From a phage: a DNA stretch of 64,000 bases. The position numbers were made by a program, and so were the translations under genes. Positions 3,813 to 57,550 of the stretch are shown here, piece by piece (position 1 is the first letter of the stretch; every line of letters begins with the position of its first letter). The notes beneath the pieces are model-generated. The model was not told the origin of the DNA. It made no database searches and saw only the letters and a list, made by a program, of their open reading frames with translations. The stretch is from assembly GCA_018175075.1 (NCBI GenBank), contig GCA_018175075.1_4100.2. One strand, given 5' to 3'.

Positions 3813-4005
3813 ATGTCCATATTGTAACAGTACTCAATTAGCTCGTTTCCGTTTAGATTCAGACTGGGCGACTGGTGCTGGTGATTTCTTCCCTATTAAT
3901 GATGATGCAGAATACACCGAAGAACAGCACAAAGATTTTGATAAATCATGGCGACCTGACATTGAGTGCATTTATTGCCTTAATTGTGAGCGTGTTCATG
4001 ACTAA
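3805..4005 (+). CDS. small zinc-ribbon protein
   Basis: CPYC ... CIYCLNC cysteine pairs. Confidence 0.5.
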   Translation: MNKCPYCNSTQLARFRLDSDWATGAGDFFPINDDAEYTEEQHKDFDKSWRPDIECIYCLNCERVHD

Positions 4006-25578: not shown

Positions 25579-25956
25579 TTAACCAGGGATGTTACAATAA
25601 TACAAATCCCAAGGGTGATATTTCATTTCTCCAGTACTCAATTTAATTTTATGAAACTGGAATGATTCGGCAAATGCACTATCATCAATCTTAATACAAA
25701 AAGTATTTTTTGCTAAAGTTGGTGCAATCTCTAGTGCAGTTTTAGATGCATCTAATCTGATTTTATCTTTATCAAAACTTGTTATAGTTACAAAACGATA
25801 AACATTAAAATCAGTGTCGATAAGATCGTAAACACAACTAGAACGTTGATTAAAGATGTTCAAGTTATATTTCAATTCACCGTTTATATTAGCGGCGGTT
25901 ACACAAAAGCCGCCGATATTGAATGGTAATTTACCTTGTGCTGCTATAGCTTTCAT
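25579..25956 (-). CDS. hypothetical protein (only substantial minus-strand gene in window)
   Basis: 125-aa ORF; minus-strand RBS AGAGGAAA upstream of ATG; convergent with plus-strand genes. Confidence 0.55.
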   Translation of the reverse strand: MKAIAAQGKLPFNIGGFCVTAANINGELKYNLNIFNQRSSCVYDLIDTDFNVYRFVTITSFDKDKIRLDASKTALEIAPTLAKNTFCIKIDDSAFAESFQFHKIKLSTGEMKYHPWDLYYCNIPG

Positions 25957-26084
25957 ATTTTATTTCCTCTTATTAATAAACAACTACTTTTACAGATTGT
26001 TGTACCTTTTATATTTACACCGTCAACTAAATATCCACCTAAAGTGAATGGAAATTGGTCTTGTCCTGCGATTGGTTTTCCCAT
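25955..26084 (-). CDS. upstream small ORF (43 aa) translationally coupled to 25579..25956
   Basis: Minus-strand ATG preceded by TAAGGAG; stop TGA overlaps the main ATG; peptide MGKPIAGQDQFPFTLGGYLV resembles the main protein N-terminus MKAIAAQGKLPFNIGGFCV. Confidence 0.4.
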
Positions 26085-26162
26085 TAAGGGCACTCCTTAT
26101 AAAAAAGCTTTACATTTGGTATGTGTTTGTGATAGAATCTTCACAGTGATTGTACTAAGGGG

Positions 26163-26190
26163 ATTATCAGATGAGGGAAATTTGAGTTAA
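26163..26190 (-). promoter_or_regulatory. candidate minus-strand promoter (TTAACT -16- GATAAT)
   Basis: Read on reverse complement; lies in divergent intergenic region. Confidence 0.3.
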
Positions 26191-26203
26191 GTACAGAAAA
26201 AGT

Positions 26204-26232
26204 TTGACTTAAGTGTTTAAGTACTATATTAT
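26204..26232 (+). promoter_or_regulatory. candidate sigma70-like promoter (TTGACT -17- TATTAT)
   Basis: -35 TTGACT at 26204-26209; flanked by TTAAGT(AC) repeats. Confidence 0.45.
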
Positions 26233-26265
26233 TTATATCTTCCTAACCAAAATTAAGGATTTGTT

Positions 26266-26874
26266 ATGAAAAGACTATGGCTTGAGGTAGTACAAGCAGT
26301 AATGCTTCTGATGTTGATAAATTTTCCAGCCAGTGCTGGTATTGAAAGTAAAAATGTGATAAAGTACAATCCTGAAACACGTAATGTATATTTCATCTCA
26401 GATATTACGGATGGGTCACTAAAGCGTATGATGGAGTTGTATGATAAAGAACACTATGATACCATTACCATCACATCGCCAGGTGGTGATTTTGATGCTG
26501 GGATTAAAATGGCAAACTTCGTTAGAGACAATGGTATAAATTTAATTGTTTCTAGGTATTGCAACTCAGCATGTACTGTGGTATTCTTCAGTGTAGCTTT
26601 TGAAAAGCGATACATGATAAATCGCTCAGTACTGGGTCTTCATAACATTTCGATTAAAAGTAATGTTACTGATGGTGATAATTCATTTGTGTCTGTAAGA
26701 CAGCTATCAACTTTTACCGAAGAAATGGCAACAAAGGTAGGTTTCCTTTTTTCACTATATGCAGCAAATGGAATCCCACCAGAAGTTCTATTTAGAGTTA
26801 GTCGTTCTCGTGGTGAAGATGTTGTAATATTAACAAAACCAGAACTGGTTTTTTACGGTTCAGTCAAACAATAA
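26266..26874 (+). CDS. secreted ClpP/S49-fold serine protease-like protein
   Basis: N-terminal signal peptide (hydrophobic core, AGI); ITSPGGDFDAG and NSAC motifs resembling the ClpP SPGG and Ser-site regions; a His is present. Confidence 0.5.
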   Translation: MKRLWLEVVQAVMLLMLINFPASAGIESKNVIKYNPETRNVYFISDITDGSLKRMMELYDKEHYDTITITSPGGDFDAGIKMANFVRDNGINLIVSRYCNSACTVVFFSVAFEKRYMINRSVLGLHNISIKSNVTDGDNSFVSVRQLSTFTEEMATKVGFLFSLYAANGIPPEVLFRVSRSRGEDVVILTKPELVFYGSVKQ

Positions 26875-26944
26875 AAATAATTAAAATAACAGGATGATTA
26901 TGATGTACTTCCTTTGTTATTAATTATATTGAGATTATATAACT

Positions 26945-27205
26945 ATGACAAACATCCAAAACTTGACATCTATTATTTTTTATGCTACTGTAGTAATGTA
27001 TGCTACAGTTATTTTTCTAACAGTTTTCATTTACAAAGATTATCGTAATGGCTTTATTGATCCAACTACAATGAAGTTCAATTCAAAATTCGAAGCAATA
27101 ATTTATTATGTACTATCAACTTCATACTTGGTGTGCCTAATGTTGTTAGGAGCACTAATTTATATCTTATACACAACATTATTTGCAATTGGAGCTATTT
27201 TATGA
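26945..27205 (+). CDS. small membrane protein
   Basis: Two hydrophobic segments. Confidence 0.45.
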   Translation: MTNIQNLTSIIFYATVVMYATVIFLTVFIYKDYRNGFIDPTTMKFNSKFEAIIYYVLSTSYLVCLMLLGALIYILYTTLFAIGAIL

Positions 27206-39731: not shown

Positions 39732-39756
39732 AAGCACCCGTTGGGTGCTTTTTTAT
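39732..39756 (+). terminator. intrinsic terminator
   Basis: Hairpin AGCACCC...GGGTGCT plus T-run. Confidence 0.65.
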
Positions 39757-39762
39757 TATGTA

Positions 39763-39770
39763 TATAAATA
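39763..39770 (+). promoter_or_regulatory. T4-type late promoter motif TATAAATA
   Basis: Exact TATAAATA about 35 nt upstream of the 39805 ATG. Confidence 0.45.
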
Positions 39771-39804: not shown

Positions 39805-42501
39805 ATGTCAAAGAAAATATATGGTGGCTTAGATGTCACACATAATGTGACAGTTAATGGTAAAAGAACAATTCAAGGAATAAATGAACAAGTTTTTGAT
39901 TCCAACGGTAACTTGGAATTAGATACTTATTCCAGAGATGAAGTACTAGATATAGTAAGTATGATGCCAATCTCCCATTATGGTTCACAAAACTATCTAC
40001 CTGCGGGTGTTTCTGGGGATTTCAATGGTGCATCAGAAAACCAGTCACAACGTAGAAATAAAATTTTATTAGAAAACGATGGTACACTAGTACTTTTACG
40101 TAGTGGGACAAACGGTAGTGTTGAGGGATTATTTTATTCATATTTGGCTAACGCATTATCAGTTGATGACATGAGCCGTACAATTAACACTAGTCGTCAA
40201 TACAAGCCTGGGTTTTTTGGTTCAAATAGAGTTGCGATTGGTTTATACAATACTGATCCAAATATTTTACTCGGTAGATATATTGATACTTCTAACAGTA
40301 CTAATGGTTTGTTCATATCAATTACCAATGGTACATTAGATGATAAATTGCATACTGGTTTTTTCGTTAACCAAGCAGATATATCACCTGAAGGTGGTAT
40401 TGAATATGCTATGATGGCAGAAGATGGTTCTATATATGTTTTTAACGTACTTAATGAAAATAACCAACTACAATTAGTTGTTGTTAAAGTTGTTTATAAT
40501 ATAAGCAATGGTACTTATACTGCAACTCGAATTACTGGATGGACTACTAAAACATTTTATAACACGACATATTCTGCACAAAATAATATGGTTATTACTA
40601 ATCAGGTAACATCAACAAATATTGCTGATAAACCTTATGTGTATGTTCCACAAAATCTACGCGGTATTGGGATTTACATGACATCAATTGATTTATATGT
40701 TGCACAGCAGCCAGGAACGCAGAATTTCCGCTTTAGAATGAACGGGGATGCTTGGTTTACAATGGCAACATATAATACACGTCCACAGCATAGTTACAGT
40801 TTTGTGTTCAATATGAGTACTAAACAATGTACATTAGATGCGGGTAACGATATTGGTTCATATCAAGCACCATTAGTTATAACTAATACTGGTTCGGCAT
40901 TAGTTCCTACTGGTAACGTTTTAAATAACGATCCATTGTATAACCATGCAAATGCAAGAAACATTTATAGTTCATATTTTTATTTAAATTCAGGTGAAGC
41001 ATTTTGTACTGCATGTCCAAACTTAGCAGAACCATTACTTATGCAAAAAGCTAAGTTTCCTATTCAAATAGTTTATAGTATGCTGAATGTCCGTGCTGTA
41101 CTTTCTACTGACTTCAAAGGTGGTATAGTTCGCCCGTCTTTTGGTTCAGCGGTTGGTTCATTTATTAATGGTGTAGAATTACTACCAGATAACAGTACTA
41201 AACAATATTCACGTGCATCAGGTAGTGGTGGATTTAGACCATCATATGCAGTTCATAAAAGTACTCCTAATTTTACATTTAAATCATTATCTTTAGGAAC
41301 AATACAAGGTTATGAACCTACAGTTGAACGTGCTAATGTTGATGATAATGCAAATAATAGAATTTTTATTAGTAGTATTTCTGGGTCAACTGTCACAACC
41401 AATGGTGGTATTTTTATGGTTGGGAAACGTTATTCACAATCATTATCCTATGATAAAAACTTAAATGGCACAGGAATTATAAGCGTTACACAATCAGTAC
41501 TGGACAATTTTAGAAATACTGAATATGCCAAAGTTCTAAGTGATTGGAATTTATCAGCACAAGCATACCGTGATATGACACTATTTGTTCCACAACAAAC
41601 AGACATTCCAGCTTTTGTTATGTTGAGTACAATTACTAATGATTATAGAAACTATATTAGAATTGCTGAAGTTAATGTCAATACTAGAGTTGGTAATATT
41701 ACATCTATTACATTTAAGCGTTTAGTACTTGAGAATACGTATGGTGATAACTTTACACCAACTGGGAATGGTTCGATTGCATCTTCTTCTGTTGGTTTGA
41801 CCATATATGATGGTGGTTCATTCTACTTCATTGGTGGTTCTGACCCATTATCACATCCAACAATAGGTAATACTGCAACTCATCAATTTAGAGCATATGT
41901 AACTAAATCAACTGCACAATTTACAAGTTTTATAATTACTGGATCTCATGCCAGTTATGAACAAGGAAGTCAACCAGCAGCATTACCTGGTATTGGTTTT
42001 GGAATTTTTGAACCAATGGATTACTCAAATAAAATGACATTCAAAAAATATGGAACAACGATTGCAGACTATAATAACTGGACTGCACAAGGTAGCCCAA
42101 TTAACGTAGTATCCCAGGACGTTGCTCAAGGGTTTATTGTATATTTTACAGAGGAAACACCAGTTATTCTTTCAGGTAAGTCATTTTCACTACCAGTTTC
42201 AAATATTGATTTGAGAACTATTAAGTCTAATCCAGCAAATACAACATTTTATGTATATGTTAAATTGGAACAAGGATTGGCAAACTATTACATAACTACT
42301 GATGTTATTTCTGAAACAGGAACAACTGCATATAATATTTTTTGGATAGGTACAATTCAAACTAATGCAATTCAAATCGAAACAATTAATATACAAAAAC
42401 GTTCCCGTTTAGATATATTTGGTGCTTCACTTGAATCAGCAGGTTCATCGTTCCCAGTTAGCTACGGTCTACCATCACAAACAGGAACCATAAACTGGTA
42501 A
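39805..42501 (+). CDS. large fibre-like structural protein (paralog A)
   Basis: 898 aa, Ser/Thr/Asn/Gly-rich; shares N-terminal (LRSGTNGS) and C-terminal (GSSFPVS.G.PS.TGT..W) blocks with 43117..45846. Confidence 0.5.
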   Translation: MSKKIYGGLDVTHNVTVNGKRTIQGINEQVFDSNGNLELDTYSRDEVLDIVSMMPISHYGSQNYLPAGVSGDFNGASENQSQRRNKILLENDGTLVLLRSGTNGSVEGLFYSYLANALSVDDMSRTINTSRQYKPGFFGSNRVAIGLYNTDPNILLGRYIDTSNSTNGLFISITNGTLDDKLHTGFFVNQADISPEGGIEYAMMAEDGSIYVFNVLNENNQLQLVVVKVVYNISNGTYTATRITGWTTKTFYNTTYSAQNNMVITNQVTSTNIADKPYVYVPQNLRGIGIYMTSIDLYVAQQPGTQNFRFRMNGDAWFTMATYNTRPQHSYSFVFNMSTKQCTLDAGNDIGSYQAPLVITNTGSALVPTGNVLNNDPLYNHANARNIYSSYFYLNSGEAFCTACPNLAEPLLMQKAKFPIQIVYSMLNVRAVLSTDFKGGIVRPSFGSAVGSFINGVELLPDNSTKQYSRASGSGGFRPSYAVHKSTPNFTFKSLSLGTIQGYEPTVERANVDDNANNRIFISSISGSTVTTNGGIFMVGKRYSQSLSYDKNLNGTGIISVTQSVLDNFRNTEYAKVLSDWNLSAQAYRDMTLFVPQQTDIPAFVMLSTITNDYRNYIRIAEVNVNTRVGNITSITFKRLVLENTYGDNFTPTGNGSIASSSVGLTIYDGGSFYFIGGSDPLSHPTIGNTATHQFRAYVTKSTAQFTSFIITGSHASYEQGSQPAALPGIGFGIFEPMDYSNKMTFKKYGTTIADYNNWTAQGSPINVVSQDVAQGFIVYFTEETPVILSGKSFSLPVSNIDLRTIKSNPANTTFYVYVKLEQGLANYYITTDVISETGTTAYNIFWIGTIQTNAIQIETINIQKRSRLDIFGASLESAGSSFPVSYGLPSQTGTINW

Positions 42502-42512
42502 AGGATTACATA

Positions 42513-43100
42513 ATGGCATATAAAATAAGAGCAGACCTTAAGGCAATGCAACAAGTAACAGTTCAGGGTAAAAGTACTGGTCTTGGTGTATTAGGTAATA
42601 ATATGACTTATTACCCAACAAATTCAAATGGGGAATGTACATTCCCCTCTATTACCAAAGATGAAGTTAACTTTATTGTCAATGGATTACCACTTACACA
42701 ATACGGAGAATTGTATGATGACGCTAGTCTAAATATTACTTCATCAGGCTATAGTCTTACATTTAACAGACAGATACCATCATTTATTGGTGGTTATCTT
42801 TATAAATTTCCAGCAGTTTCTATTTTTGCTTCAACTGTTTCATCTGGAACACAAACACAATACGTATATGCAACGTTAGTTCTCGGTGAACCAATTTATA
42901 AAATATCACCAACACAAATACAAGAATCTGAAATTATAATGTTTATTGGAACACTGACCGTTGGTACAAGTGGTATTACAAATATAAACATTAATAAAGT
43001 ATCCAGATTTAGTACATATAGACCTAGTGTTACACAAAAAGGTTCTTCATTCCCAGTCAGTACTGGAAAACCATCAGAAACTGGTACAATTGGTTGGTAA
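42513..43100 (+). CDS. short fibre-like paralog (195 aa)
   Basis: C-terminus ...YRPSVTQKGSSFPVSTGKPSETGTIGW matches neighbours. Confidence 0.5.
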   Translation: MAYKIRADLKAMQQVTVQGKSTGLGVLGNNMTYYPTNSNGECTFPSITKDEVNFIVNGLPLTQYGELYDDASLNITSSGYSLTFNRQIPSFIGGYLYKFPAVSIFASTVSSGTQTQYVYATLVLGEPIYKISPTQIQESEIIMFIGTLTVGTSGITNININKVSRFSTYRPSVTQKGSSFPVSTGKPSETGTIGW

Positions 43101-43116
43101 ATTAAGGAAAAGAAAG

Positions 43117-45846
43117 ATGTCATCAAAACGAATTATAGGAAGTGCCGAGATCCTTGGGAACTTGGCAATTGGACAAAGGTACGCTATGCGTACTTTTAAT
43201 GGAACCTCACCGAATGCCAATACTGGAATTGTTCAATATCCAATATATAAGCGTTCAGAAGTTCAAAGTATTTTAGATATGTTGCCTATATCACGTGTAG
43301 GAGAAATGGATTACTTACCATTAAACGTAAGTGGATCGTATGAAGGTGCTACACCTATGTCAAGTGACCAAGTAGTTCAGCCAACAATTATTGAAGATGA
43401 TGGAACCGCCGTTGTTCTGCGTAGCGGAACCAATGGTAGTACTAAAGGTTTTTATTATTCATTTATACGAGATCTCCGAAATATAACTATGATTTCACAA
43501 GAAAGTGTTATTTCAACCAATTCAATGTATAAACCTTCAATTATGAGTAGTACTGAAAATATTAAGTATTTTATTGGCTCTAATGGTTATGAGATGCTTG
43601 GATGTTTAAGTACTGAAGATAATTATATTTTTACTATAACCAATGGCACATTTAACGAAATATCACATATTCATGCTAAAGTTCCAAGTACTTCTTTTGG
43701 TAATGATATGCCAATATATACACATATTGTTGGGACAAAGGTTTATATTTGGTGTAAAGATAAAAGTGTTTCTAATTTAGGATTAGCACTTTCAATTTAT
43801 ACAGTAGAGCTAAGTGATGTGAAAGCAAGCTCAATGGCATCATTAACAAAAGTTACTGGGTTATCAGGTCAAACTGTTCGAAACACAAGTTATTCTGCAT
43901 CTAATAACATAAGAGTGTTCGATAAATTATATAGTGTTGGTACTAGCTCGGATTCATTATTCGAAGTTACATCACCAGTATCACGTGTAGAATTTTCAGA
44001 CTATACAGACTTTAACATTCAAGCCAACGTTAGTCCTGATTTATCAAAAATACGTGTAACTTTATATCCAACACATCGAATGGTTACACCTTTGTATATT
44101 TCAACAGTTTATGGTACTGGAATAAGTTTTGTTTATAATATAAACTCAAAATCTATGTCACTAGATGGTAGTGCTCGTGCACCTGCAACTGTTTCATATA
44201 ATAATGGATTTCAAGTTTCTAACCCATTTGAAATTAATATGGTCAACTTCACAGGGACAACTGCTGCTGGTGTATTAGGAAACGCAGGTGGTTTATGTCA
44301 AACTAAAGATGGTTTGGTATTTGCATCTAAATTTAGATGGAGTTCAACTGAATTTTATGGTCTACAACGATATAAGGTTAGTGGTACACCGTTTGATTCA
44401 TGGGTTGCCAGTACTAGAACCGCAAGTAACGTTATAAATGCAAACGTTTTACCAGTTTTTGGTAGTGCTGTTGGTGCAAACCTTTTAGGTGTACGTTTCA
44501 TCGATAATAGAAAAATATTATTAGCATGTTCTGGTACGTATGATGATGTAACATATAATTATAATAATACTGTTTTTTCTGAAATAGGTTCACAACCAAC
44601 ATATCAATATAACTCAGTTCAAAATAATACTACATTAAATGGTTTTGCACCACAATCTAATCGTAAACAAATAGGCGATGATTTTACATACACTGCTATG
44701 ATTTCTCTTGTTGATACCGATGGTAGTGTTAGATGCTATGGAACATCATTCATTGAAGGTGTATATAAAACAAGTGGTGGATTATTAAACCCAGATACTT
44801 TAGAATTTGATGAAACATATACAATAGAACCAACGGTATTAGAATCATTAAAACAAGATATTTTTGCTAATATAGGAAACTCTGGCATTGTTGGCACACT
44901 ATCTGGACAAATTGTATTATATTATGTACCTGATAATACTTTTTCTAAATCCATCGCAGTAGTTTCAGCATATAATCTTAACAATAACCAAGGTTATGCA
45001 ATCTATGCCGAAGTTGATGTTGTATTATCTGGAACTAACATAACTTCAGCTACATTGGTGAGTACTAGATATGAGACACTTAGTTCTGTTACAGGAATTA
45101 TTACTGAAGCATATATGAAACGTTGTACTGGTCTAACAGTTGCAAAATATTCAGGATTTGGTTACATTGGTGTTGATGCTGTTCATCAATTTTCACAACC
45201 AGGTAATGCACAATTTAAGATGATGATAGCTAAAACAGTAGATGGTGTCATAACATCAAATCGTTTTTTATCATCTAGTTACATCCAACTTGGTGCAGCA
45301 TATCAACATGGTGTTATTCCTGGTGTTGGTTTTGGATATTACAATTTTCAAGATTCTGACTATCAAACCAAATCTGTATTCAGCGTTTTTGGTACAACAT
45401 CTGCTGAAATGGATGGTTTAATTAGCGGAAATGGTAGCGTTAAAGAAAAGATTGTGGTAGTATCACAAGACGTTGCACAAGGATTCTCAGTGTACTTTAC
45501 ACGTGAAGTTCCGGTGTTTTTAGGTGGAATTTTCGACAGACTACCTATACAAAGTGTTGATTTAAGTACTGTAAAAAGTAACCCAGCTAATACTACGTTC
45601 TATTTGTATATACAAATGAACAGGAATACTAAGAAAGCGTCATATGTTATTAGTACTGAAACAATTGATGAATCTTTAACTAGCACTTACATTGGTAAGA
45701 TAGTTACTGGAACTTCAGGAATAACTTCAATTGATACAGAAAAAGTAACTCGTTTTTTGACATATCGTCCAAGTACAACGAAACGTGGTTCAGCGATACC
45801 TGCCAGTACTGGTGTACCATCAGGTCCAGGTACACGTTGGAAATAA
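43117..45846 (+). CDS. large fibre-like structural protein (paralog B)
   Basis: Start at ATG 43117 after AAGGAAAAG; shared N- and C-terminal blocks with 39805..42501. Confidence 0.5.
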   Translation: MSSKRIIGSAEILGNLAIGQRYAMRTFNGTSPNANTGIVQYPIYKRSEVQSILDMLPISRVGEMDYLPLNVSGSYEGATPMSSDQVVQPTIIEDDGTAVVLRSGTNGSTKGFYYSFIRDLRNITMISQESVISTNSMYKPSIMSSTENIKYFIGSNGYEMLGCLSTEDNYIFTITNGTFNEISHIHAKVPSTSFGNDMPIYTHIVGTKVYIWCKDKSVSNLGLALSIYTVELSDVKASSMASLTKVTGLSGQTVRNTSYSASNNIRVFDKLYSVGTSSDSLFEVTSPVSRVEFSDYTDFNIQANVSPDLSKIRVTLYPTHRMVTPLYISTVYGTGISFVYNINSKSMSLDGSARAPATVSYNNGFQVSNPFEINMVNFTGTTAAGVLGNAGGLCQTKDGLVFASKFRWSSTEFYGLQRYKVSGTPFDSWVASTRTASNVINANVLPVFGSAVGANLLGVRFIDNRKILLACSGTYDDVTYNYNNTVFSEIGSQPTYQYNSVQNNTTLNGFAPQSNRKQIGDDFTYTAMISLVDTDGSVRCYGTSFIEGVYKTSGGLLNPDTLEFDETYTIEPTVLESLKQDIFANIGNSGIVGTLSGQIVLYYVPDNTFSKSIAVVSAYNLNNNQGYAIYAEVDVVLSGTNITSATLVSTRYETLSSVTGIITEAYMKRCTGLTVAKYSGFGYIGVDAVHQFSQPGNAQFKMMIAKTVDGVITSNRFLSSSYIQLGAAYQHGVIPGVGFGYYNFQDSDYQTKSVFSVFGTTSAEMDGLISGNGSVKEKIVVVSQDVAQGFSVYFTREVPVFLGGIFDRLPIQSVDLSTVKSNPANTTFYLYIQMNRNTKKASYVISTETIDESLTSTYIGKIVTGTSGITSIDTEKVTRFLTYRPSTTKRGSAIPASTGVPSGPGTRWK

Positions 45847-45849
45847 ATT

Positions 45850-45880
45850 TAAAGCTCGTCTATTGACGGGCTTTTCTTTT
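45850..45880 (+). terminator. intrinsic terminator
   Basis: Imperfect hairpin AGCTCGTC...GACGGGCT plus T-run. Confidence 0.5.
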
Positions 45881-45891
45881 ATGTGTATAAT
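45863..45891 (+). promoter_or_regulatory. sigma70-like promoter (TTGACG -17- TATAAT) overlapping the terminator hairpin
   Basis: TTGACG at 45863-45868; TATAAT at 45886-45891. Confidence 0.5.
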
Positions 45892-45913
45892 TGAATAAAA
45901 ATAGGAGGAAATT

Positions 45914-46480
45914 ATGGTCAAATCTTTATTACCGCCACCAAAACGTCACAAAATCAAAGAAATGAAAGAACAACGTACATTAAAGATGTACATCAATTTA
46001 GTTAAGTTACTGTGTAAAAGTCCATCGCTCAAAGCAGAGTTTAAAACTGATGATGACCGCAAAGCACTAATTGAGATGAAGTATATGCTCAGTAAAATGT
46101 CCTTTTACAAATTTGTAAAAGAATACGCATCTGACCCATTTAGTCCTCGTTGGAGAGCCAAACCAAGAGAGTATTTTTACGGTGGTTCATATACGGATCT
46201 CATTCAAGACACAGTGATGGGAGTTGAATTTGAAATCGATTATGATCCGAATGGTGTGGAAAGCTGGCCGATTGAGAAACGTTTACCAAGTGAAGAAGAA
46301 ATTTATGTTTATGCAAGAAAACTTTCAAATTTCAGTTCAAGAATTACTCTAGGCAATTTAGATTCATTTATTATTTTCTATACACGTGTTGGTGTAGATA
46401 AAATGGTAACTAAACTCAATGAACTTTCATTACAACAAAAACAGATTAATGCATACAAAGACATTACTGATTTATACTAA
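45914..46480 (+). CDS. hypothetical protein (triplet paralog 1)
   Basis: RBS AGGAGG; KTDDDRKALIEMKYMLSK motif shared with next two genes. Confidence 0.5.
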   Translation: MVKSLLPPPKRHKIKEMKEQRTLKMYINLVKLLCKSPSLKAEFKTDDDRKALIEMKYMLSKMSFYKFVKEYASDPFSPRWRAKPREYFYGGSYTDLIQDTVMGVEFEIDYDPNGVESWPIEKRLPSEEEIYVYARKLSNFSSRITLGNLDSFIIFYTRVGVDKMVTKLNELSLQQKQINAYKDITDLY

Positions 46481-49152: not shown

Positions 49153-49353
49153 ATGAGTATAATGGTACTAAAAATGCCATTATACTCGATAAATACTCAA
49201 TATAAATTAACGCAAGGATTAAGTATGGCACAACAAATTTTCACAGATATCCACACTACCGGAGTTATTAAATTTCAAAATAATTTTTCAGGTGCAACTG
49301 GCGTAGACATTAAAAATGATGGTTTTAACATTGTCAGTACTCGGATCTATTGA
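49153..49353 (+). CDS. small hypothetical protein
   Basis: ORF; overlaps next ORF in another frame. Confidence 0.3.
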   Translation: MSIMVLKMPLYSINTQYKLTQGLSMAQQIFTDIHTTGVIKFQNNFSGATGVDIKNDGFNIVSTRIY

Positions 49354-49852
49354 CGGTGAAGATAGTTCTCTTAGTGATTCGGTAATTGCATCATTTGGAA
49401 CAAATAAAAACAGTTCTTTTATTATTTCTGGCTGGACTGGAATGACTTCTTCCGAAAATAATGTAAAAATAAAAGCTAAAGCTACTAATGAGAATCATGA
49501 AACAGAATGGGTAACATTGTATGATAGTGCTAGTAACAAGTTATATAATGTATTGAGTTCTAATAATATTTTAATTAATCCCCTATCAGGTAATACAGTT
49601 TTTAATATTAATTTATCTGATAGAAATACCACTATTGCTATTGGTTCTGCTCCTACTGAAGTTTATTCAATTACTATCCTATTAACTCAGCAAACAGGGT
49701 CTAACCTCGTTAATTGGGGTTCAAATGTTAAATGGTCATATAATAGACCAGTTGTTCTTTCTTATGAAATTGGTGAAAAAGATATTATTTCATTAGAAAC
49801 ATATGATAAAGGAGTTACATGGTACGGTGCATTAATTAGAGCAGGAGTATGA
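49316..49852 (+). CDS. hypothetical protein
   Basis: ORF; start uncertain. Confidence 0.4.
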   Translation: MMVLTLSVLGSIDGEDSSLSDSVIASFGTNKNSSFIISGWTGMTSSENNVKIKAKATNENHETEWVTLYDSASNKLYNVLSSNNILINPLSGNTVFNINLSDRNTTIAIGSAPTEVYSITILLTQQTGSNLVNWGSNVKWSYNRPVVLSYEIGEKDIISLETYDKGVTWYGALIRAGV

Positions 49853-49853
49853 T

Positions 49854-52643
49854 ATGTTAAACAATAATATTGATAATATTGTACAACTTCTTTATGGGCA
49901 TCACAAATTTATTGAAAGAAATACTGGTGATACAATAGACCCAACAGTACAGCATTATGTGGTGAACAATCAGGGTGTTTTGGCGAACAACCGCCATTTT
50001 ATTAACTATTCTGCAATGGAAGGTCAACCAAACGGTGACGGGACAACAGAAGGTCAAAGTCTATTAATTTTAGGATACATTTATGCATATCTGGCTACAA
50101 ATGATCCATTGTTTTTAGATAAGGCAAAGTGGTATTGGGACGCATATCATCAGTACTTTTATGCTGGACGTGAATTACCAGATCCACCTACACCGCTACA
50201 ATGTAACTGGATAGTTAATGCAAAAGAACCTATATTGGCTAACTGGCCTTTAGCTGATGATGGATGGCCTACACATGGTGGTTTCAAGGGTGTAGAATTT
50301 ACATTTACAAATGGTCAATGCAAAATACCACATGGTGCACCATATTATGGTCAGTTCTTGGATAAAGTGACATTTGCATTCAAAGGTGCTTTAGCATGGA
50401 ACCAAATAAATGCGTCAGTAAAAGCTTTATTACCAGATGGTAGTGTTGATTGGGATACACCAGGTGAACAATATGATGTTGACTGGATTATTGATTTCAT
50501 GGGTAGAAAAATCGACTGGGATGGTAATATTTTAGCAGAAGGTTTTGACGAATCTGAAAAAGGAACTGTTCAATTAAAGAATACAACAATTAATGGTGTA
50601 TATAAATTAAATTTTGCTAATCGTCAACCAGTAGAATATGGTGGTGTAATAATTCAACGAAATGAAATGCAACACAACCGCCCACTTCATGTTCCAATTG
50701 ATTTAGAATTTGCTGATAACGCATCAGATGCAGAATTATGGTTTAGTGATGCTTCGTATTTGTTATATAAAATAACTAAAGAAAGAAAACATTATTTGGG
50801 TTGGAAATGTTCACTACTCACATGCTATGCTTATGGTGATATCGACTCCAGAGATAAATTTTTCAGACAAAGTACAATTGTAACCACACCATTCACTGAT
50901 GGTATTTCCTATGAATATTTTTATCCAAGTGATGCTATTGCTAAGTTTGGTAGAAATTCGTTAGGATACATTACTATCAGACAAGACCAAAGTGCACAGA
51001 GTACTATGGAGCAACAAGCTATTTGGTTCAGGGTAAATGCTGATTCAAAATTGCTAGTTGACTATGGTGGCGTGTGCGATGATGGTAAACCGTTATCATT
51101 TAAACCAGTACTGGAATTGTCAAAAACAAAAAATGACCATGATGTTGTTCGTTATCGTTGCGGCTTACCAGAAAGTAAAGACCAAAATATCACACATTCA
51201 TTAACACCGTTAAGTGCATTTGTTAGAGAAAAGAAAGCAGATGGTTCCCCTTATATAATTGCTGATAGTAGAATTGTTGTTCCTTATGGTGCAGCTACGT
51301 CCGAAATGTTATATAGTACTGATATATTAGTTACACGCCGCGATACCATTAATCAGTTAGTTTGTGGTGAAGATGATGGTGCTGTTATTGGATTTTGGCT
51401 ATTAGCAACAAATAAGTCTGAAGTTAAATCTTTTACCTATCGTTCATATGAAGATGATTACAATATAAGAATTGTAGATGATAATGGTTGGAGATGGTGG
51501 TGGATGATTCCTGCAACACACGGGGAATGGACTACAATCACACTAAGTTCCGATACATTACGTTTATCTGGGTATCAGCCAAATCATCCAAGTTCTGACC
51601 CAAGACCAGATGCACCAGTTTATAGTGAACTAGAAGATATTACTATTTTACCTGATACAACCCCAGTAGATGGTGTTGCTGCAATAATTGATTGGTATTG
51701 TATTAATGACATTCCAGAATTATACACGGATGCTGACGGTGATGACTATACTATGACATTTTCAATAACAATTGCAGGTGAATCACCATATACTGCACAG
51801 TTAGGGGATTGTGTAATCAAGGATTATTTGTTAAACTCATTGCATTACACACCAGGAACAATACCATTTTCTAACATCACTGACCCGTATGCGAACCAGT
51901 ATTCAGGATGGCGTGGTTTACCGTATCCAGGTTATCAATATCCTGTGATATATTGTTTTAAAGACCAGCCGGTAGATAACACACGCTTAGGAAACATGTT
52001 AAGCTTTATGAAAGATTCCCAAACATGGTTTACTCAACAATTCGGTACTGTTGGTCCGTGTGCACAAGCATATGTTTGGAACCGCTGGGATAACTTAAAA
52101 TATGGTGAACCAGATACATTTACTATGCTACATTGGGGTGATCAAGCATGGAGTGGGTATGAACCACGTGCGTTCTTTGGGGCTGCCAGAGCATGGCAAG
52201 AACTCGCAGAGAGAGGAATTGAACCACCAGCAGATCTTGTTGAATTTTGTGAGAATTGGATTCACTTTTTAATTCAATTTCAAAAAGATAATGATGGTCG
52301 TTCACCAACAATCTTCAATAAAGATGGCACAGTTGAAGGTCCAGATTGGGACTTTACAGGTCATATGTGTGGGTTGTGGTTAGCTGGGGCTTGTGCTGCT
52401 GGATTGGCTGGATGTAAAATAGAAGGTCTAACAACACTCGCTGATAACTTAGTTCTCGAACTTCAAAAGAATTATGTTATTGTAAATCCAGGTTCACCAA
52501 TGAATGGTTCATGGAGTCCAGCAGTTAGAGAAGGTACTGATAATGGTATGTTTTTTGGTTTCTGGGCAGGTGAGATTATGCGTGGATTGGGATTATACTC
52601 AATGTACCGCTTAAACACACCAAATCGTTTCCGTGATTTATAA
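49854..52643 (+). CDS. large hypothetical protein (929 aa)
   Basis: Long Trp/Tyr-rich ORF directly after the fibre-like genes; no motif I can assign. Confidence 0.5.
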   Translation: MLNNNIDNIVQLLYGHHKFIERNTGDTIDPTVQHYVVNNQGVLANNRHFINYSAMEGQPNGDGTTEGQSLLILGYIYAYLATNDPLFLDKAKWYWDAYHQYFYAGRELPDPPTPLQCNWIVNAKEPILANWPLADDGWPTHGGFKGVEFTFTNGQCKIPHGAPYYGQFLDKVTFAFKGALAWNQINASVKALLPDGSVDWDTPGEQYDVDWIIDFMGRKIDWDGNILAEGFDESEKGTVQLKNTTINGVYKLNFANRQPVEYGGVIIQRNEMQHNRPLHVPIDLEFADNASDAELWFSDASYLLYKITKERKHYLGWKCSLLTCYAYGDIDSRDKFFRQSTIVTTPFTDGISYEYFYPSDAIAKFGRNSLGYITIRQDQSAQSTMEQQAIWFRVNADSKLLVDYGGVCDDGKPLSFKPVLELSKTKNDHDVVRYRCGLPESKDQNITHSLTPLSAFVREKKADGSPYIIADSRIVVPYGAATSEMLYSTDILVTRRDTINQLVCGEDDGAVIGFWLLATNKSEVKSFTYRSYEDDYNIRIVDDNGWRWWWMIPATHGEWTTITLSSDTLRLSGYQPNHPSSDPRPDAPVYSELEDITILPDTTPVDGVAAIIDWYCINDIPELYTDADGDDYTMTFSITIAGESPYTAQLGDCVIKDYLLNSLHYTPGTIPFSNITDPYANQYSGWRGLPYPGYQYPVIYCFKDQPVDNTRLGNMLSFMKDSQTWFTQQFGTVGPCAQAYVWNRWDNLKYGEPDTFTMLHWGDQAWSGYEPRAFFGAARAWQELAERGIEPPADLVEFCENWIHFLIQFQKDNDGRSPTIFNKDGTVEGPDWDFTGHMCGLWLAGACAAGLAGCKIEGLTTLADNLVLELQKNYVIVNPGSPMNGSWSPAVREGTDNGMFFGFWAGEIMRGLGLYSMYRLNTPNRFRDL

Positions 52644-52644
52644 C

Positions 52645-52673
52645 TTGACATAGAAAAAGTAATTATGTATAAT
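52645..52673 (+). promoter_or_regulatory. consensus sigma70 promoter (TTGACA -17- TATAAT)
   Basis: TTGACA at 52645-52650; TATAAT at 52668-52673. Confidence 0.65.
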
Positions 52674-52674
52674 C

Positions 52675-52705
52675 AGAGAACTTCATATGGAGTTCTCTTT
52701 TTTTA
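52675..52705 (+). terminator. strong intrinsic terminator
   Basis: 10-bp stem AGAGAACTTC / GGAGTTCTCT, 4-nt loop, seven T's. Confidence 0.7.
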
Positions 52706-52717
52706 TAAGGTGATAAA

Positions 52718-53137
52718 ATGTTAAATGAACGTATTAAAAATGCACTACATGTATTGAACCAAGAAGTAAATTCTATTGATAAAAGTACTGACCGTTATAA
52801 AGTAATGCATGAAATCAAACAAGAATTGGAATCTATTAATAAGGGAGAATGGTGGTATCTTCAGCCCGAATATCAAACTCGTGAATTAAACGATGTTGAA
52901 AAAGAAATTGTCAAATTCATCACTACTCGTTACTGTGATACATCAGAGAATGAGGTATCAGCGAACTTCAATCTTACTAAATTGGAAGTCGAAGAAAAAT
53001 TCAATTTTGATTGGCTTGATTGGATTGAAATGGTCATGGAACTAGAAGAAAAATTCAATGTTGAAGTTGATGAAAAGTTCGAGAATAATGAAACGAAGCT
53101 GTATGAACTAGTAGAACATATTCAAAAAATGTTGTAA
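52718..53137 (+). CDS. acidic hypothetical protein
   Basis: ORF. Confidence 0.5.
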   Translation: MLNERIKNALHVLNQEVNSIDKSTDRYKVMHEIKQELESINKGEWWYLQPEYQTRELNDVEKEIVKFITTRYCDTSENEVSANFNLTKLEVEEKFNFDWLDWIEMVMELEEKFNVEVDEKFENNETKLYELVEHIQKML

Positions 53138-53190
53138 AACTATACAATTGTATACTCTAAATAATATCATCAACTATAGGAGATATTATT

Positions 53191-53565
53191 ATGAGTATGT
53201 TAGAAATAATTGTTTCAAAAATTCTTATTCCATTTTGGAAACCAATTTCTTTTGTATTATTAATTGGCGGTTCAGCTTATGCTGGTTGGGAAGCTAATAC
53301 TTATTACAGTGGATATCAACAAAGCATAGAGCAACAAATAGCTAAAAAAGTTGATACCGCCTTGGATAAAATGCAACAAGAAAATGCAAAAAATTACCTT
53401 GAAACTAAAAAAATCATGGAAGATAATGCTAAAGTTATTGAAACAAAGGTTCCTTTTATTGTAGAACGTGAAGTTTATAAGAATGTATGTTTAGATGAAG
53501 ATGGTGTAAAAGTACTGAATGAACTAAAACAAAATTCTCAAGCAGCGAGGAATAAATTCAAATGA
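53191..53565 (+). CDS. i-spanin-like protein (N-terminal TM plus coiled coil)
   Basis: N-terminal TM helix then charged helical region; RBS AGGAGA; adjacent lipoprotein gene, an arrangement like the T4 spanin pair. Confidence 0.45.
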   Translation: MSMLEIIVSKILIPFWKPISFVLLIGGSAYAGWEANTYYSGYQQSIEQQIAKKVDTALDKMQQENAKNYLETKKIMEDNAKVIETKVPFIVEREVYKNVCLDEDGVKVLNELKQNSQAARNKFK

Positions 53566-53871: not shown

Positions 53872-54483
53872 ATGAACAAATATCATGTTTACTATACGAC
53901 AAAATTATCACTTCTTGAAGAATTAAATCAACGAAGTACTAAGATGAAACGCTACACTTTAAATGGTATTACTTTTCGATATTTCCCACAAAAAGTTCTT
54001 ACTTTTGTTAAGAATCCAAAATGCGTGGCATGTGGGATTGAAGCTACTGAAGTACGCATTGAACGTTCATTATGTTCTGATCCAGTATATGGTAAACCAC
54101 ATTTAAATGTATATGCTGTATGTGGTCTTTATGAAGTTTTAATGACAGTTGACCATAATCATCTGGCATCTAAGGGTGGACCTGATTTAGAGTCAAACTT
54201 TAATACTATGTGCTCCAGATGTAATCAACTACGTTCGAATAAAACTGAAACAGTTGATGAGTTTCTTGAAAAAGTTAAAGGTCGTAATCTTCTCCAAGAA
54301 CATATGAATAATTTCTTTAATGTACAAAAAAAGAAAAATAACATTGACAAGTCGAAACTACTAGAAGAACGTAGGTTACGTCAAGAATTATGGGAAACCG
54401 ATCATCTATGGCATGTTCGAGAGTTTGGTCGTCATATGAAAGCTTTGAAAAAAGAACAGAAGAAATTGAATAAACATGATTGA
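53872..54483 (+). CDS. HNH homing endonuclease
   Basis: TVDHNH...SKGGPD...N...CSRCNQLR HNH motif; RBS AAGGAA. Confidence 0.7.
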   Translation: MNKYHVYYTTKLSLLEELNQRSTKMKRYTLNGITFRYFPQKVLTFVKNPKCVACGIEATEVRIERSLCSDPVYGKPHLNVYAVCGLYEVLMTVDHNHLASKGGPDLESNFNTMCSRCNQLRSNKTETVDEFLEKVKGRNLLQEHMNNFFNVQKKKNNIDKSKLLEERRLRQELWETDHLWHVREFGRHMKALKKEQKKLNKHD

Positions 54484-54495
54484 TATGATATTATA

Positions 54496-54526
54496 AGGAC
54501 TTGAGTATTCAAGTCCTTTTTTTTGG
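54496..54526 (+). terminator. intrinsic terminator
   Basis: Hairpin GGACTTGA...TCAAGTCC plus eight T's. Confidence 0.7.
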
Positions 54527-56443: not shown

Positions 56444-56884
56444 ATGGAAGATATTAATGATTTACGACACGTAATGGACTTTATCGGAAGTACTGAAGAA
56501 GATAATTCATATGATGAAGTACTATTAACTTTTATTGAAAATAGTTTGTTTTTAAGTTCTGCTGCACATAACTGGCACTTACAATGTCATTTTTATACAA
56601 AGCATTTACAATTAGATGAACTATATAAAGAATTACCAGAATATGTAGACGCATTTGTTGAAGGTATCATGAATAATCGTGGTGCTTTGCAAGTTGGGAC
56701 TGGTAATAGTTATCGTTTTACACCAATTGAAGATTGTGTACCAATTCTTGAAGAATATGTTGAGCAATGCAGAGCAATTCATGATATGCTTGAAGAATCG
56801 GGTGATTACGGCAGTGTAAACACATTAGAAGATATTATGAGTTTTGTTGAAGGAACACTTTACAAACTTAAAGTTTTACAATAA
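56444..56884 (+). CDS. acidic hypothetical protein
   Basis: RBS AAGGAG. Confidence 0.5.
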   Translation: MEDINDLRHVMDFIGSTEEDNSYDEVLLTFIENSLFLSSAAHNWHLQCHFYTKHLQLDELYKELPEYVDAFVEGIMNNRGALQVGTGNSYRFTPIEDCVPILEEYVEQCRAIHDMLEESGDYGSVNTLEDIMSFVEGTLYKLKVLQ

Positions 56885-56889
56885 ACTAT

Positions 56890-56920
56890 ATGGAGAGTCG
56901 CTATGACTCTCCTTTTCTTT
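56890..56920 (+). terminator. intrinsic terminator
   Basis: Hairpin GGAGAGTC...GACTCTCC plus T-rich tail. Confidence 0.6.
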
Positions 56921-56932
56921 TGGAGAAATAAT

Positions 56933-57550
56933 ATGAAATCGCATGAGTTAGCAAAATTACTACTATCTCAACCAAATCTAGAAATTTATCATTATGATGC
57001 AGAGAGTGACTTGCATTATCAGAATTTTGATAATAGATTAATGGTTACACCATCTGGTATTTTCACAACGGTAAAACCTACATCAGTTTCTGAAAATGTA
57101 CTTACACCATACGAAACCCCCCTCTTGGGTCATGTGCAAATTTTCTTTAAGGATGGTACTATTACTCCAAAATTGGAGGGTTCACATATTCAAACTGTTC
57201 TTAGCTTAGAATATGGGTTGGTATTTAACATTCCTTATGAAAAGCCAATTGTTTTATTAGGTAAAAATAAATCAACACAATTCTCTAATCAACATGCTGT
57301 TTGTTATACATCTGATGATATTGATTTCATTTCAGTACTGACAGAATATGATCCTAATACTTGGAATGAAACATGGGAAAATATGTCATATGATGAAGCA
57401 ATTGAATGTGGTAAAAATTTAGCCAAAATGTTATTTCCACAAAAAGAAGAACTTTCACAAGAACAAAATGAATCATTTTCTAAAGATTTTCCTGATTCTG
57501 AATTCAATGTAAAAGTATCACCTTCTATGATTGATAAAATTGAAAAATAA
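56933..57550 (+). CDS. hypothetical protein (paralog of 58286..58870)
   Basis: Start at ATG 56933; N-terminus MKSHELAKLLLSQPNLEIYHYD parallels MKAKDLAALLLQNPEMEVYHEH. Confidence 0.5.
   Translation: MKSHELAKLLLSQPNLEIYHYDAESDLHYQNFDNRLMVTPSGIFTTVKPTSVSENVLTPYETPLLGHVQIFFKDGTITPKLEGSHIQTVLSLEYGLVFNIPYEKPIVLLGKNKSTQFSNQHAVCYTSDDIDFISVLTEYDPNTWNETWENMSYDEAIECGKNLAKMLFPQKEELSQEQNESFSKDFPDSEFNVKVSPSMIDKIEK

What the first reader, a model, noticed from the sequence alone, without database searches (positions are those of the whole stretch)
52641..52705. Consensus promoter embedded between a stop codon and a strong terminator; same arrangement at 45850-45891
TTGACA -17- TATAAT begins two nucleotides after the stop of the 929-aa gene, and a 10-bp-stem terminator starts one nucleotide after the -10. 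A transcript initiating here would contain only the 3' half of the stem and so escape termination, while read-through transcripts from upstream are stopped. At 45850-45891 the -35 (TTGACG) lies inside the terminator stem. Both look like compact insulator-plus-restart units.
Basis: seen in the sequence. Interest (0 to 1): 0.45.

Follow-up and report, generated by a model that had tools for sequence, protein, structure and literature searches.

The report
Overlapping terminator–promoter junctions in jumbo phage
Two gene boundaries in this giant E. coli phage pack a transcription stop signal and a textbook start signal into the same ~60 bases, so that incoming transcripts should end and a new one should begin; the layout is real and conserved, but it is a kind already known from phage phiX174.

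Summary
The window comes from an Asteriusvirus, a 121Q/PBECO4-like E. coli jumbo phage.

**Site 1.** The order is stop codon, TTGACA, 17 nt, TATAAT, 1 nt, then a 10-bp hairpin with a T-run, then SD and ATG.

**Site 2.** The hairpin comes first. TTGACG sits in its loop and 3' arm, and TATAAT lies 17 nt downstream.

**Conservation.** Both sites are conserved. At site 1 the hexamers and stem persist in relatives about 72-76% identical, while the spacer has diverged. At site 2, TTGAC, the 16-17 nt spacing, TAnnAT and a covarying hairpin persist across several genera.

**Genomic position.** Both sites close structural-gene operons that have T4-type late promoters (TATAAATA at 39763, GATAAATA at 49188). 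Each opens a sigma70-type transcription unit.

**Escape from termination.** The predicted site 1 start, A52680, lies inside the 5' arm. This cuts the hairpin from -13.0 to -2.6 kcal/mol, so transcripts from this promoter should escape termination.

**Genome-wide.** In a close relative, 10 of 83 predicted terminators carry an overlapping or abutting strong promoter on the same strand. About 1.4 are expected at random, and these occur in several registers.

**Precedent.** phiX174 pA/TH has the same geometry as site 1.

**Verdict.** This is a new member of a known kind, of modest interest. No transcript mapping exists for these phages.

The parts
52641..52643 (+). Stop codon (TAA) of the 929-aa tail protein gene (49854-52643)
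   Evidence: phrog_2871 tail protein, E=0
52645..52673 (+). Site 1 sigma70-type promoter: -35 TTGACA (52645-50), 17-nt spacer, -10 TATAAT (52668-73)
   Evidence: A 12/12 match. The hexamers are kept and the spacer has diverged in A4, JNE01 and Turkey5.
52679..52681 (+). Predicted transcription start (6-8 nt after the -10; A52679/A52680), inside the 5' arm of the hairpin
   Evidence: Inferred from the -10 position. The residual hairpin is -3.5, -2.6 or -1.4 kcal/mol for the three starts, against -13.0 for the full hairpin. Not mapped experimentally.
52675..52704 (+). Site 1 intrinsic terminator: stem 52675-84 / 52689-98, loop ATAT, T-run 52699-52704
   Evidence: Annotated as a terminator (ARNold) in phage G17 and also in UE-S1. 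The stem is kept in A4, JNE01 and Turkey5, with the G-U wobble moved.
52707..52720 (+). SD AAGGTGA and ATG (52718) of the 139-aa acyl-carrier-protein-like gene, first gene of the restarted unit
45844..45846 (+). Stop codon of the 939-aa structural-type gene (43027-45846)
   Evidence: phrog_3573; the homologue in phage pEa_SNUABM_50 is annotated 'putative structural protein'
45851..45883 (+). Site 2 intrinsic terminator: stem 45851-60 / 45865-74, loop TATT, T-run TTTTCTTTT to 45883
   Evidence: Annotated as a terminator in G17 and Munch. Covariation across 11 phages: 6 of 10 pairs change on both sides, and 0/500 shuffles reach the observed score.
45863..45891 (+). Site 2 sigma70-type promoter: -35 TTGACG (45863-68, in the loop and 3' arm), 17 nt, -10 TATAAT (45886-91); predicted start about A45898
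   Evidence: An 11/12 match. TTGAC is invariant, spacing is 16-17 nt and TAnnAT is kept across Asteriusvirus, the Munch group, Eneladusvirus and Mimasvirus.
45903..45916 (+). SD AGGAGG and ATG (45914) of the 188-aa gene, first gene of the restarted unit
39763..39770 (+). T4-type late promoter core TATAAATA, just after terminator 39732-39750 and before the 898-aa gene; start of the late operon that ends at site 2
   Evidence: The motif is strongly depleted elsewhere in the window.
49188..49195 (+). Late-promoter-like GATAAATA in the intergenic region before the tail module (42-aa ORF, 178-aa tail fibre, 929-aa tail protein) that ends at site 1
   Evidence: one of only four + strand ATAAATA, against about 34 expected; gene functions
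54466..54524 (+). Third unit of the site 1 type: TTGAAT-17-(TGa)TATTAT (54466-54494) directly abutting terminator 54495-54518 and its T-run. The stop codon of the upstream gene (54481-83) lies in the spacer.
   Evidence: In A4 and JNE01 the -10 is a perfect TATAAT 0-1 nt from the conserved stem.
56859..56921 (+). Possible fourth unit: TTTACA-17-TAAACT (56859-56887), 4 nt, then terminator 56892-56912 and its T-run
   Evidence: Weaker case: the -10 overlaps the stop codon, the site has diverged in A4, and the residual hairpin is still -6 to -10 kcal/mol.

Best explanation
Both sites are composite operon boundaries in an Asteriusvirus jumbo phage. Each combines an intrinsic terminator that ends a structural-gene (late) operon with a sigma70-type promoter that starts the next unit of small genes. 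The two signals are interleaved, most likely because intergenic space is minimal (about 67-74 nt).

**Site 1.**
- The promoter lies upstream of the hairpin, and its -10 ends 1 nt before the stem.
- RNA polymerase arriving from upstream transcribes the whole hairpin and U-run and terminates.
- Polymerase initiating at the promoter starts at about A52680, inside the 5' arm. Its RNA can form only a 5-bp, -2.6 kcal/mol hairpin that lies 5 nt from the U-run.
- It therefore reads on into the ACP-like and spanin genes, as far as the next terminator at 54495.

**Site 2.**
- The order is reversed. The hairpin comes first, the -35 uses the loop and 3' arm (the GAC of TTGAC pairs with an invariant GTC), and the U-run serves as the promoter spacer.
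- The start, at about 45898, lies downstream of the terminator.

**Shown here:** the sequence elements, their enrichment, their conservation and covariation, the folding energies and the genomic context.

**Inferred:** that host E-sigma70 (or the phage's RpoD-like sigma) uses these promoters, the exact start sites, termination efficiency, and the timing of expression.
For: - **Elements and coordinates:**
- **Enrichment of consensus-like sites on the coding strand:** 13 against 2.36 expected in the window. In a 350-kb relative, 87 against 17 sites at 12 bits or more, and 58 of 61 spacer-17 sites are on the coding strand.
- **Site 1 conservation:** kept in A4, JNE01 and Turkey5 with diverged spacers, and the -10 is always 0-1 nt from the stem.
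- **Site 2 conservation:** kept across at least four groups of jumbo phages, with invariant TTGAC, 16-17 nt spacing and a covarying stem.
- **Folding:** -13.0 kcal/mol for the full hairpin against -2.6 for the truncated one.
- **Context:** late-promoter cores at 39763 and 49188, with the motif otherwise depleted. Structural or tail genes lie upstream and small genes downstream.
- **Genome-wide coupling:** 10 of 83 terminators have a same-strand promoter of 11 bits or more overlapping or abutting them, against 1 antisense and about 1.4 at random positions. These occur in several registers, including TATAAT in a hairpin loop.
- **Precedent:** phiX174 pA/TH has identical geometry, with the annotated start at the first loop base.
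- **Related phages:** RpoD-like promoters and T4-like late motifs are reported for the related phages CBB and GAP32 (PMC5259590).
Against: - No 5' or 3' end mapping exists for any Asteriusvirus in the searched literature, so promoter use, start sites and termination efficiency remain predictions.
- Many equally good consensus-like sites lie inside genes (for example 974-1002, 12/12), so a good match alone does not prove use.
- The residual 5-bp hairpin at site 1 could still cause some termination or pausing.
- One Asteriusvirus lineage (fEgEco12, CMSTMSU) has no such unit before the ACP-like gene, so the unit is dispensable at that junction.
- The temporal class of the flanking genes is inferred from motifs and gene functions, not measured.
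Confidence: 0.75

Rival explanations
1. The overlap is a functional coupling device, not only compaction. Two versions are possible. (a) E. coli RNA polymerase that releases its RNA at the hairpin stays on the DNA ('recycling termination') and re-initiates at the overlapping promoter, which would link expression of consecutive units. (b) At site 1-type units, heavy late transcription runs across the promoter before terminating and occludes it, which would shut off the downstream early unit automatically.
For: Recycling termination, with reinitiation at the nearest promoter, has been demonstrated for E. coli RNAP (PMC11347151 and the references in it). Terminator-promoter coupling is far above chance in this genome. 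The -35-in-hairpin arrangement at site 2 has persisted across genera, which is more stable than simple adjacency would require.
Against: The units occur in several different registers: promoter before the hairpin, interleaved with it, inside it, or 6-16 nt after it. This fits 'any arrangement that saves space and keeps the start beyond the 5' arm' better than one specific hand-over geometry. If the upstream operons are transcribed by a gp55-type late holoenzyme and the promoter needs sigma70, hand-over would need a sigma exchange. There are no expression data.
Confidence: 0.12
2. The promoter-like hexamers are not used. They are by-products of AT-rich intergenic sequence and of the hairpin sequence, and the downstream genes are expressed by read-through or from other promoters.
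For: The genome is 33% G+C, and loose promoter-like matches are no more frequent than in shuffles (107 against 106). Several near-consensus sites are intragenic.
Against: High-scoring matches are 5-fold enriched and almost all co-oriented with the genes. The hexamers and 16-18 nt spacing are conserved while the spacers diverge. In Eneladusvirus the hairpin has shifted register, yet TTGACA is kept, now in the loop. The strong terminators would otherwise leave the downstream genes without a transcript source.
Confidence: 0.08
3. The inverted repeat at site 1 is mainly a DNA operator for a dimeric repressor that covers the start site, or an RNA processing or stability hairpin, rather than a terminator.
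For: The repeat spans about -5 to +19 of the promoter, a classic operator position.
Against: It is followed by a canonical T-run, and independent annotators (ARNold) call it a terminator. Other units of the same architecture have unrelated stem sequences, so there is no shared operator. Pairing is maintained through wobble and compensatory changes, which points to selection on RNA structure.
Confidence: 0.04
4. Site 1 is a promoter-proximal attenuator of the lambda PR'-tR' type. The promoter fires into its own terminator and makes a short RNA unless an antiterminator acts.
For: The promoter is followed by a terminator within 30 nt. Premature termination in 5' UTRs is common in other phages (PMC10914365).
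Against: The -10 ends 0-1 nt before the stem in every relative, so a start 6-9 nt downstream cannot include the whole 5' arm. The phiX174 homologous layout has its start at the loop.
Confidence: 0.02

Closest known systems
phiX174 pA promoter / TH terminator overlap (H-A intergenic region)
   Same: The order and spacing are the same: stop codon, TTGACA, 17 nt, -10, hairpin starting 0-1 nt after the -10, T-run, then the next gene's ATG. The transcription start lies beyond most or all of the 5' arm (RefSeq marks 3962, the first loop base), so pA transcripts escape TH while upstream transcripts stop there.
   Different: phiX174 is a 5.4-kb ssDNA microvirus with no temporal sigma switching. Its -10 is weak (TTTCAT) and its stem has 6 bp. 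Here the promoter is 12/12 consensus and the stem has 10 bp. The predicted start leaves half of the 5' arm in the transcript, and the unit separates a late operon from a sigma70 unit in a 350-kb myovirus. The sequences are not homologous.
RpoD-like (early) promoters and T4-like late promoters described for Rak2-like jumbo phages (CBB, GAP32, PA5oct)
   Same: The promoter classes are the same: TTGACA/TATAAT before clusters of small genes, and ATAAATA-type motifs before structural genes. Many ARNold terminators are reported (PMC5259590; PMC7318152).
   Different: In the passages read, those papers list promoters and terminators separately and do not mention their physical overlap, its registers or its conservation. 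No start sites have been mapped for Asteriusvirus.
Generic terminator-then-promoter operon boundaries in bacteria and T4-like phages
   Same: Site 2 and the many units with the -35 at 6-16 nt after the stem are ordinary 'stop then restart' junctions. Close terminator-promoter proximity is general in E. coli and B. subtilis (PMC11347151).
   Different: At site 2 the -35 is built from the hairpin loop and 3' arm and the U-run doubles as the spacer. This sharing of bases has been kept across genera.
Promoter-proximal terminators and attenuators (lambda PR'-tR', 5'-UTR terminators in Pseudomonas phages)
   Same: A terminator lies within a few tens of bases of a promoter.
   Different: In attenuators the full hairpin is transcribed from that promoter. 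Here the geometry excludes this.

Membership tests
sigma70-type (-35/-10) promoter | -35 and -10 hexamers close to TTGACA / TATAAT with a 17±1 nt spacer | tested here: met
   Site 1 matches 12/12 and site 2 matches 11/12, both with a 17-nt spacer.
sigma70-type (-35/-10) promoter | Hexamers and spacing under purifying selection relative to the spacer and flanks | tested here: met
   hexamers are kept and spacers have diverged. At site 2, TTGAC is invariant in 11 phages of several genera.
sigma70-type (-35/-10) promoter | Primary transcript 5' end 6-9 nt downstream of the -10, dependent on E-sigma70 | not testable with these tools
   No transcript mapping was found for Asteriusvirus.
Intrinsic (Rho-independent) terminator | Stable G+C-containing hairpin immediately followed by a U-run, downstream of a stop codon | tested here: met
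   Site 1: 10 bp, -13.0 kcal/mol, T6-7. Site 2: 10 bp followed by TTTTCTTTT.
Intrinsic (Rho-independent) terminator | Base pairing maintained by compensatory change | tested here: met
   Site 2: 6 of 10 pairs change on both sides, 0/500 shuffles reach the observed score, and slid controls score much lower. Site 1: only a shifted wobble among close relatives, so the evidence there is weak.
Intrinsic (Rho-independent) terminator | RNA 3' ends in the U-run in vivo or in vitro | not testable with these tools
   Needs Term-seq or in vitro transcription.
phiX174 pA/TH-type overlapping promoter-terminator (site 1 only) | The -10 hexamer abuts the terminator stem (0-few nt) | tested here: met
   1 nt in the window and A4, 0 nt in JNE01 and Turkey5; 0 nt in phiX174.
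phiX174 pA/TH-type overlapping promoter-terminator (site 1 only) | The start site lies beyond enough of the 5' arm that the promoter's own RNA cannot form the terminator hairpin | tested here: inconclusive
   The predicted start A52680 leaves a 5-bp, -2.6 kcal/mol hairpin 5 nt from the U-run. The start is predicted, not mapped.
Promoter-proximal attenuator (lambda PR'-tR' type) | The complete terminator hairpin is encoded downstream of the start site | tested here: not met
   The stem begins 0-1 nt after the -10 in all relatives.
T4-type late promoter (context of the upstream operons) | TATAAATA core upstream of structural genes, with the motif avoided elsewhere | tested here: met
   TATAAATA occurs at 39763 and GATAAATA at 49188. 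TATAAATA occurs 2 times against 13.7 expected on both strands. On the + strand, ATAAATA occurs 4 times against about 34 expected.
T4-type late promoter (context of the upstream operons) | Phage gp55-like late sigma present and required | not tested
   Reported for the related phage CBB (PMC5259590). Not searched for here.

The most novel reading that the evidence does not exclude
The interleaved terminator-promoter units may be hand-over or switch points for host RNA polymerase. In one version, polymerase that releases RNA at the hairpin stays on the DNA and re-initiates at the overlapping consensus promoter (recycling termination). In the other, for units with the promoter upstream of the hairpin, late transcription sweeps across and occludes the sigma70 promoter, so the early unit is silenced as late transcription rises. 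Either would explain why the shared-base arrangement at site 2 has been kept across genera of jumbo phages.
Probability: 0.12. Interest if true: 0.6.

Novelty: new member of a known kind. Interest (0 to 1): 0.3.

Why it matters
If the prediction holds, these units give precise boundaries for transcription units in a poorly annotated group of 350-kb phages. They mark where late operons end and where sigma70 units begin.

The units could also serve as very compact natural 'terminate and restart' parts of about 60 bp, each with a consensus promoter.

The census shows that base-sharing between terminators and promoters is a recurrent way of saving space in this genome. The apparent rule is that the start site must lie beyond the 5' arm of the hairpin. 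That rule is directly testable with dRNA-seq and Term-seq.

The finding does not reveal a new mechanism, because phiX174 pA/TH already shows the same solution.

Tried and rejected
1. **Rfam.** A scan of the whole window at gathering thresholds gave no hits, so the hairpins are not part of a known structured RNA family.

2. **Literature on Asteriusvirus/Rak2-like transcription.** Searches for transcriptomes or mapped start sites found only in-silico promoter and terminator lists and a PA5oct RNA-seq study without relevant detail. An exact-phrase search for 'promoter overlaps terminator' returned nothing useful. The T4 genome review (PMC150520) is not held.

3. **Extra conserved promoter positions.** I looked for a phage-specific promoter signature beyond the two hexamers (UP element, extended -10). 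Only a slight A-richness at about -40 and a weak G at -13 appeared, so there is no evidence for a distinct promoter class.

4. **Operator reading of the site 1 inverted repeat.** Rejected because the stems differ between units.

5. **Attenuator reading.** Rejected on geometry.

6. **Loose promoter scan.** At a threshold of 9 of 12 matches or more, counts equal those in shuffles. Only near-consensus sites are informative.

7. **Unit at 56859-56912.** Conservation is ambiguous because its -10 overlaps a stop codon and phage A4 has diverged. I kept it only as 'possible'.
Full report
**What the window is.** The region 49854-53200 is 98-99% identical to Escherichia phages SHEFM2K, E9.1, SP27, 121Q, PBECO4, G17 and others. 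These are Asteriusvirus jumbo myoviruses of about 350 kb. The window is 33% G+C. Nearly all ORFs lie on the + strand.

**The observation.**

Site 1 reads: TAA (52641-43), c, TTGACA (52645-50), 17 nt, TATAAT (52668-73), c, AGAGAACTTC-ATAT-GGAGTTCTCT (52675-98), TTTTTT, then ..AAGGTGA.. and ATG (52718).

Site 2 reads: TAA (45844-46), AAAGCTCGTC-TATT-GACGGGCTTT (45851-74), then a T-run. TTGACG (45863-68) occupies two loop bases and four bases of the 3' arm. TATAAT lies at 45886-91 and ATG at 45914.

- The site 2 -35 is partly in the loop.
- A site 1 transcript would keep about half of the 5' arm, not none of it.

**Is it more than chance?**
- Loose promoter-like matches are no commoner than in shuffles.
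- Near-consensus sites are enriched. TTGACA-N17-TATAAT with at most 1 mismatch occurs 13 times against 2.36 expected, and 12 of these are on the coding strand.
- In a 350-kb close relative (ECO103 4-12-1), a position-weight scan gives 87 sites of 12 bits or more against 17 in Markov shuffles.
- In the same genome, 58 of 61 spacer-17 sites are on the coding strand, and nothing beyond the two hexamers is conserved.

**Comparative evidence, site 1.**
- In A4, JNE01 and Turkey5 the flanks are 72-76% identical. TTGACA, a 16-17 nt spacer of unrelated sequence, a -10 (TAAACT or TATAAT) and the hairpin are all present. The -10 lies 0-1 nt from the stem.
- In JNE01 and Turkey5 the stop codon of the tail gene lies inside the -35, as T[TGA]CA.
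- slurp01, ECO103, EC22.5-2, UE-S1 and ph0011 lack the 929-aa gene at this position. They still keep its last ~25 nt followed by the promoter-terminator unit.
- fEgEco12 and CMSTMSU have no unit; the genes there abut.

**Comparative evidence, site 2.**
- Nucleotide similarity extends through the intergenic region into other genera.
- I aligned 11 phages: Asteriusvirus, Munch, EJP2, Hallingskeid, Eneladusvirus (pEa50, BF) and Mimasvirus (GAP32, XbC2).
- TTGAC is invariant. The spacing is 17 nt, with one case of 16. The -10 is TATAAT, TACAAT, TATACT or TATTAT.
- The stem covaries: GCTCGTC/GACGGGC, GCCTGTC/GACAGGC, GAGGTTGTC/GACAGCCTC, GAGACTGTC/GACAGTCTC and GCGGTC/GACCGC.
- In Eneladusvirus the hairpin register has shifted, so that TTGACA lies in the loop region.
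- Formal counting gives 6 of 10 pairs with changes on both sides. No shuffle out of 500 reaches the observed covariation, and slid controls score far lower. The three innermost pairs are frozen because GAC belongs to the -35.

**Genomic context.**
- The T4-type late core TATAAATA is strongly avoided: 2 occurrences against 13.7 expected on both strands.
- On the + strand, ATAAATA occurs 4 times against about 34 expected, and TAAATA 19 times against about 97.
- The + strand copies fall at 39763, just after terminator 39732-50 and before the 898-aa gene, and at 49188 (GATAAATA), in the intergenic region before the tail module.
- The genes upstream of site 2 are large paralogues of phrog_3573; a homologue is annotated as a structural protein.
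- The genes upstream of site 1 are a tail-fibre protein and a 929-aa tail protein. Downstream genes are small: paralogous 188- and 173-aa proteins and a nucleotidyltransferase after site 2, and an ACP-like protein and an Rz-like spanin after site 1.
- This matches the classes reported for related phages. RpoD-like promoters precede small early genes, and ATAAATA motifs precede structural genes (PMC5259590). Asteriusviruses also encode an RpoD-like sigma (PMC11895373).
- Both sites therefore sit where a late operon ends and a sigma70-type unit begins.

**Mechanism.**
- The full site 1 hairpin folds at -13.0 kcal/mol.
- RNAs starting 6, 7 or 8 nt after the -10 (A52679, A52680, C52681) retain hairpins of only -3.5, -2.6 or -1.4 kcal/mol. 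These are separated from the U-run by 4 to 6 nt, depending on the start.
- Established knowledge of intrinsic termination requires the hairpin to reach the U-run, so transcripts from this promoter should not terminate.
- Upstream transcripts contain the complete signal and should stop.
- At site 2 the start (about 45898) lies beyond the terminator, so no such trick is needed. The two elements simply share bases.

**Generality.**
- In the 350-kb relative I found 83 terminator candidates.
- Ten of them carry a same-strand promoter of 11 bits or more whose -35 starts between 35 nt upstream of the stem and 20 nt after it. Only 1 does so in antisense, and about 1.4 would be expected at random positions.
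- The registers vary:
  - promoter just upstream of the stem (site 1, and 320405, 324235, 142929);
  - -35 upstream with a perfect TATAAT in the loop of a 16-bp hairpin (L021 5024-5070, minus strand);
  - -35 inside the stem or loop (site 2, and 342113, 338687, 80304);
  - -35 at 6-16 nt after the stem.
- Within the window, the unit at 54466-54524 is a third site 1-type case: TTGAAT-17-TGaTATTAT abuts the stem. A4 and JNE01 have a perfect TATAAT there.
- A fourth candidate at 56859-56912 is only possible.
- The variety of registers argues that the overlap reflects compaction. The one visible constraint is that the start must lie beyond the 5' arm.

**Comparison with what is known.**
- phiX174 pA/TH is the exact precedent for site 1. 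The literature states that the end of pA is immediately followed by the TH stem (bioRxiv 10.1101/2020.03.05.979765).
- The phiX174 sequence reads TAA-9 nt-TTGACA-17-TTTCAT-GCCTCC-aaatctt-GGAGGC-TTTTTT-ATG. RefSeq marks the transcription start at 3962, the first loop base.
- Site 2 and the downstream-register units are ordinary terminator-then-promoter junctions, apart from the base sharing.
- A leader-attenuator reading fails on geometry.
- A coupling role remains possible but unsupported. It could act through RNAP recycling (PMC11347151) or through promoter occlusion.

**Verdict.** This is a new member of a known kind. The modestly new points are the genome-wide recurrence in several registers and the cross-genus conservation of the hairpin-embedded -35.

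Noticed in passing
window, whole; + strand copies at 39763 and 49188: The T4-type late-promoter core is strongly avoided. TATAAATA occurs 2 times against 13.7 expected on both strands. On the + strand, ATAAATA occurs 4 times against about 34 expected and TAAATA 19 times against about 97. The few + strand copies include intergenic ones before structural genes.
   Followed up: partly
window 49225-52615: The tail module (42-aa ORF, 178-aa tail fibre, 929-aa tail protein) is missing in slurp01, ECO103 4-12-1 and EC22.5-2. The late-promoter region (..GATAAATA..AAGT) is joined directly to the last ~25 nt of the 929-aa gene at a short GGCACA/ACAC microhomology. UE-S1 and ph0011 also lack the module.
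   Followed up: partly
L004 687-692 (JNE01) and L005 (Turkey5): The stop codon of the tail gene is embedded in the -35 hexamer, T[TGA]CA. As a result, the 67-nt intergenic region is almost entirely occupied by the -35, spacer, -10, terminator and SD.
   Followed up: yes
L021 5024-5070, minus strand (ECO103 4-12-1, outside the window): A perfect TTGACA-17-TATAAT is interleaved with a 16-bp terminator hairpin. The 5' arm lies in the spacer, TATAAT in the loop and the 3' arm after the predicted start; T5, SD and ATG follow.
   Followed up: partly
window 974-1002 (+): A second 12/12 consensus promoter (TTGACA-17-TATAAT) lies inside the 178-aa ORF 649-1185. About ten further 11/12 sites are also intragenic and co-oriented with the genes. 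They could be internal promoters in a tightly packed early region, or they could be unused.
   Followed up: no
L012-L015 (pEa50, Serratia BF, GAP32, XbC2), about 60-90 nt downstream of the site 2 homologue: These genera have a second, tandem TTGACA-17-TACACT/TACTAT/TAAAAT promoter-like site between the composite unit and the next gene.
   Followed up: no
window 56903-56935: The ORF listed from ATG 56903 (annotated this way in G17) starts inside the terminator hairpin 56892-56912. An in-frame ATG at 56933 follows an SD (GGAGAA) after the T-run and is the more plausible start.
   Followed up: no
window 39805-45846: Three adjacent paralogous genes (898 aa, 195 aa, 939 aa) all match phrog_3573/phrog_26864. 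The 195-aa protein corresponds to the C-terminal ~120 residues of its large neighbours, and the C-terminal coding sequence is conserved at the nucleotide level across genera.
   Followed up: no
window 25579-26951, minus strand: The only sizeable minus-strand ORF nearby (25579-25956) lies downstream of the single minus-strand TATAAATA (26230-26237) and of an 11/12 promoter-like site (26951-26923).
   Followed up: no
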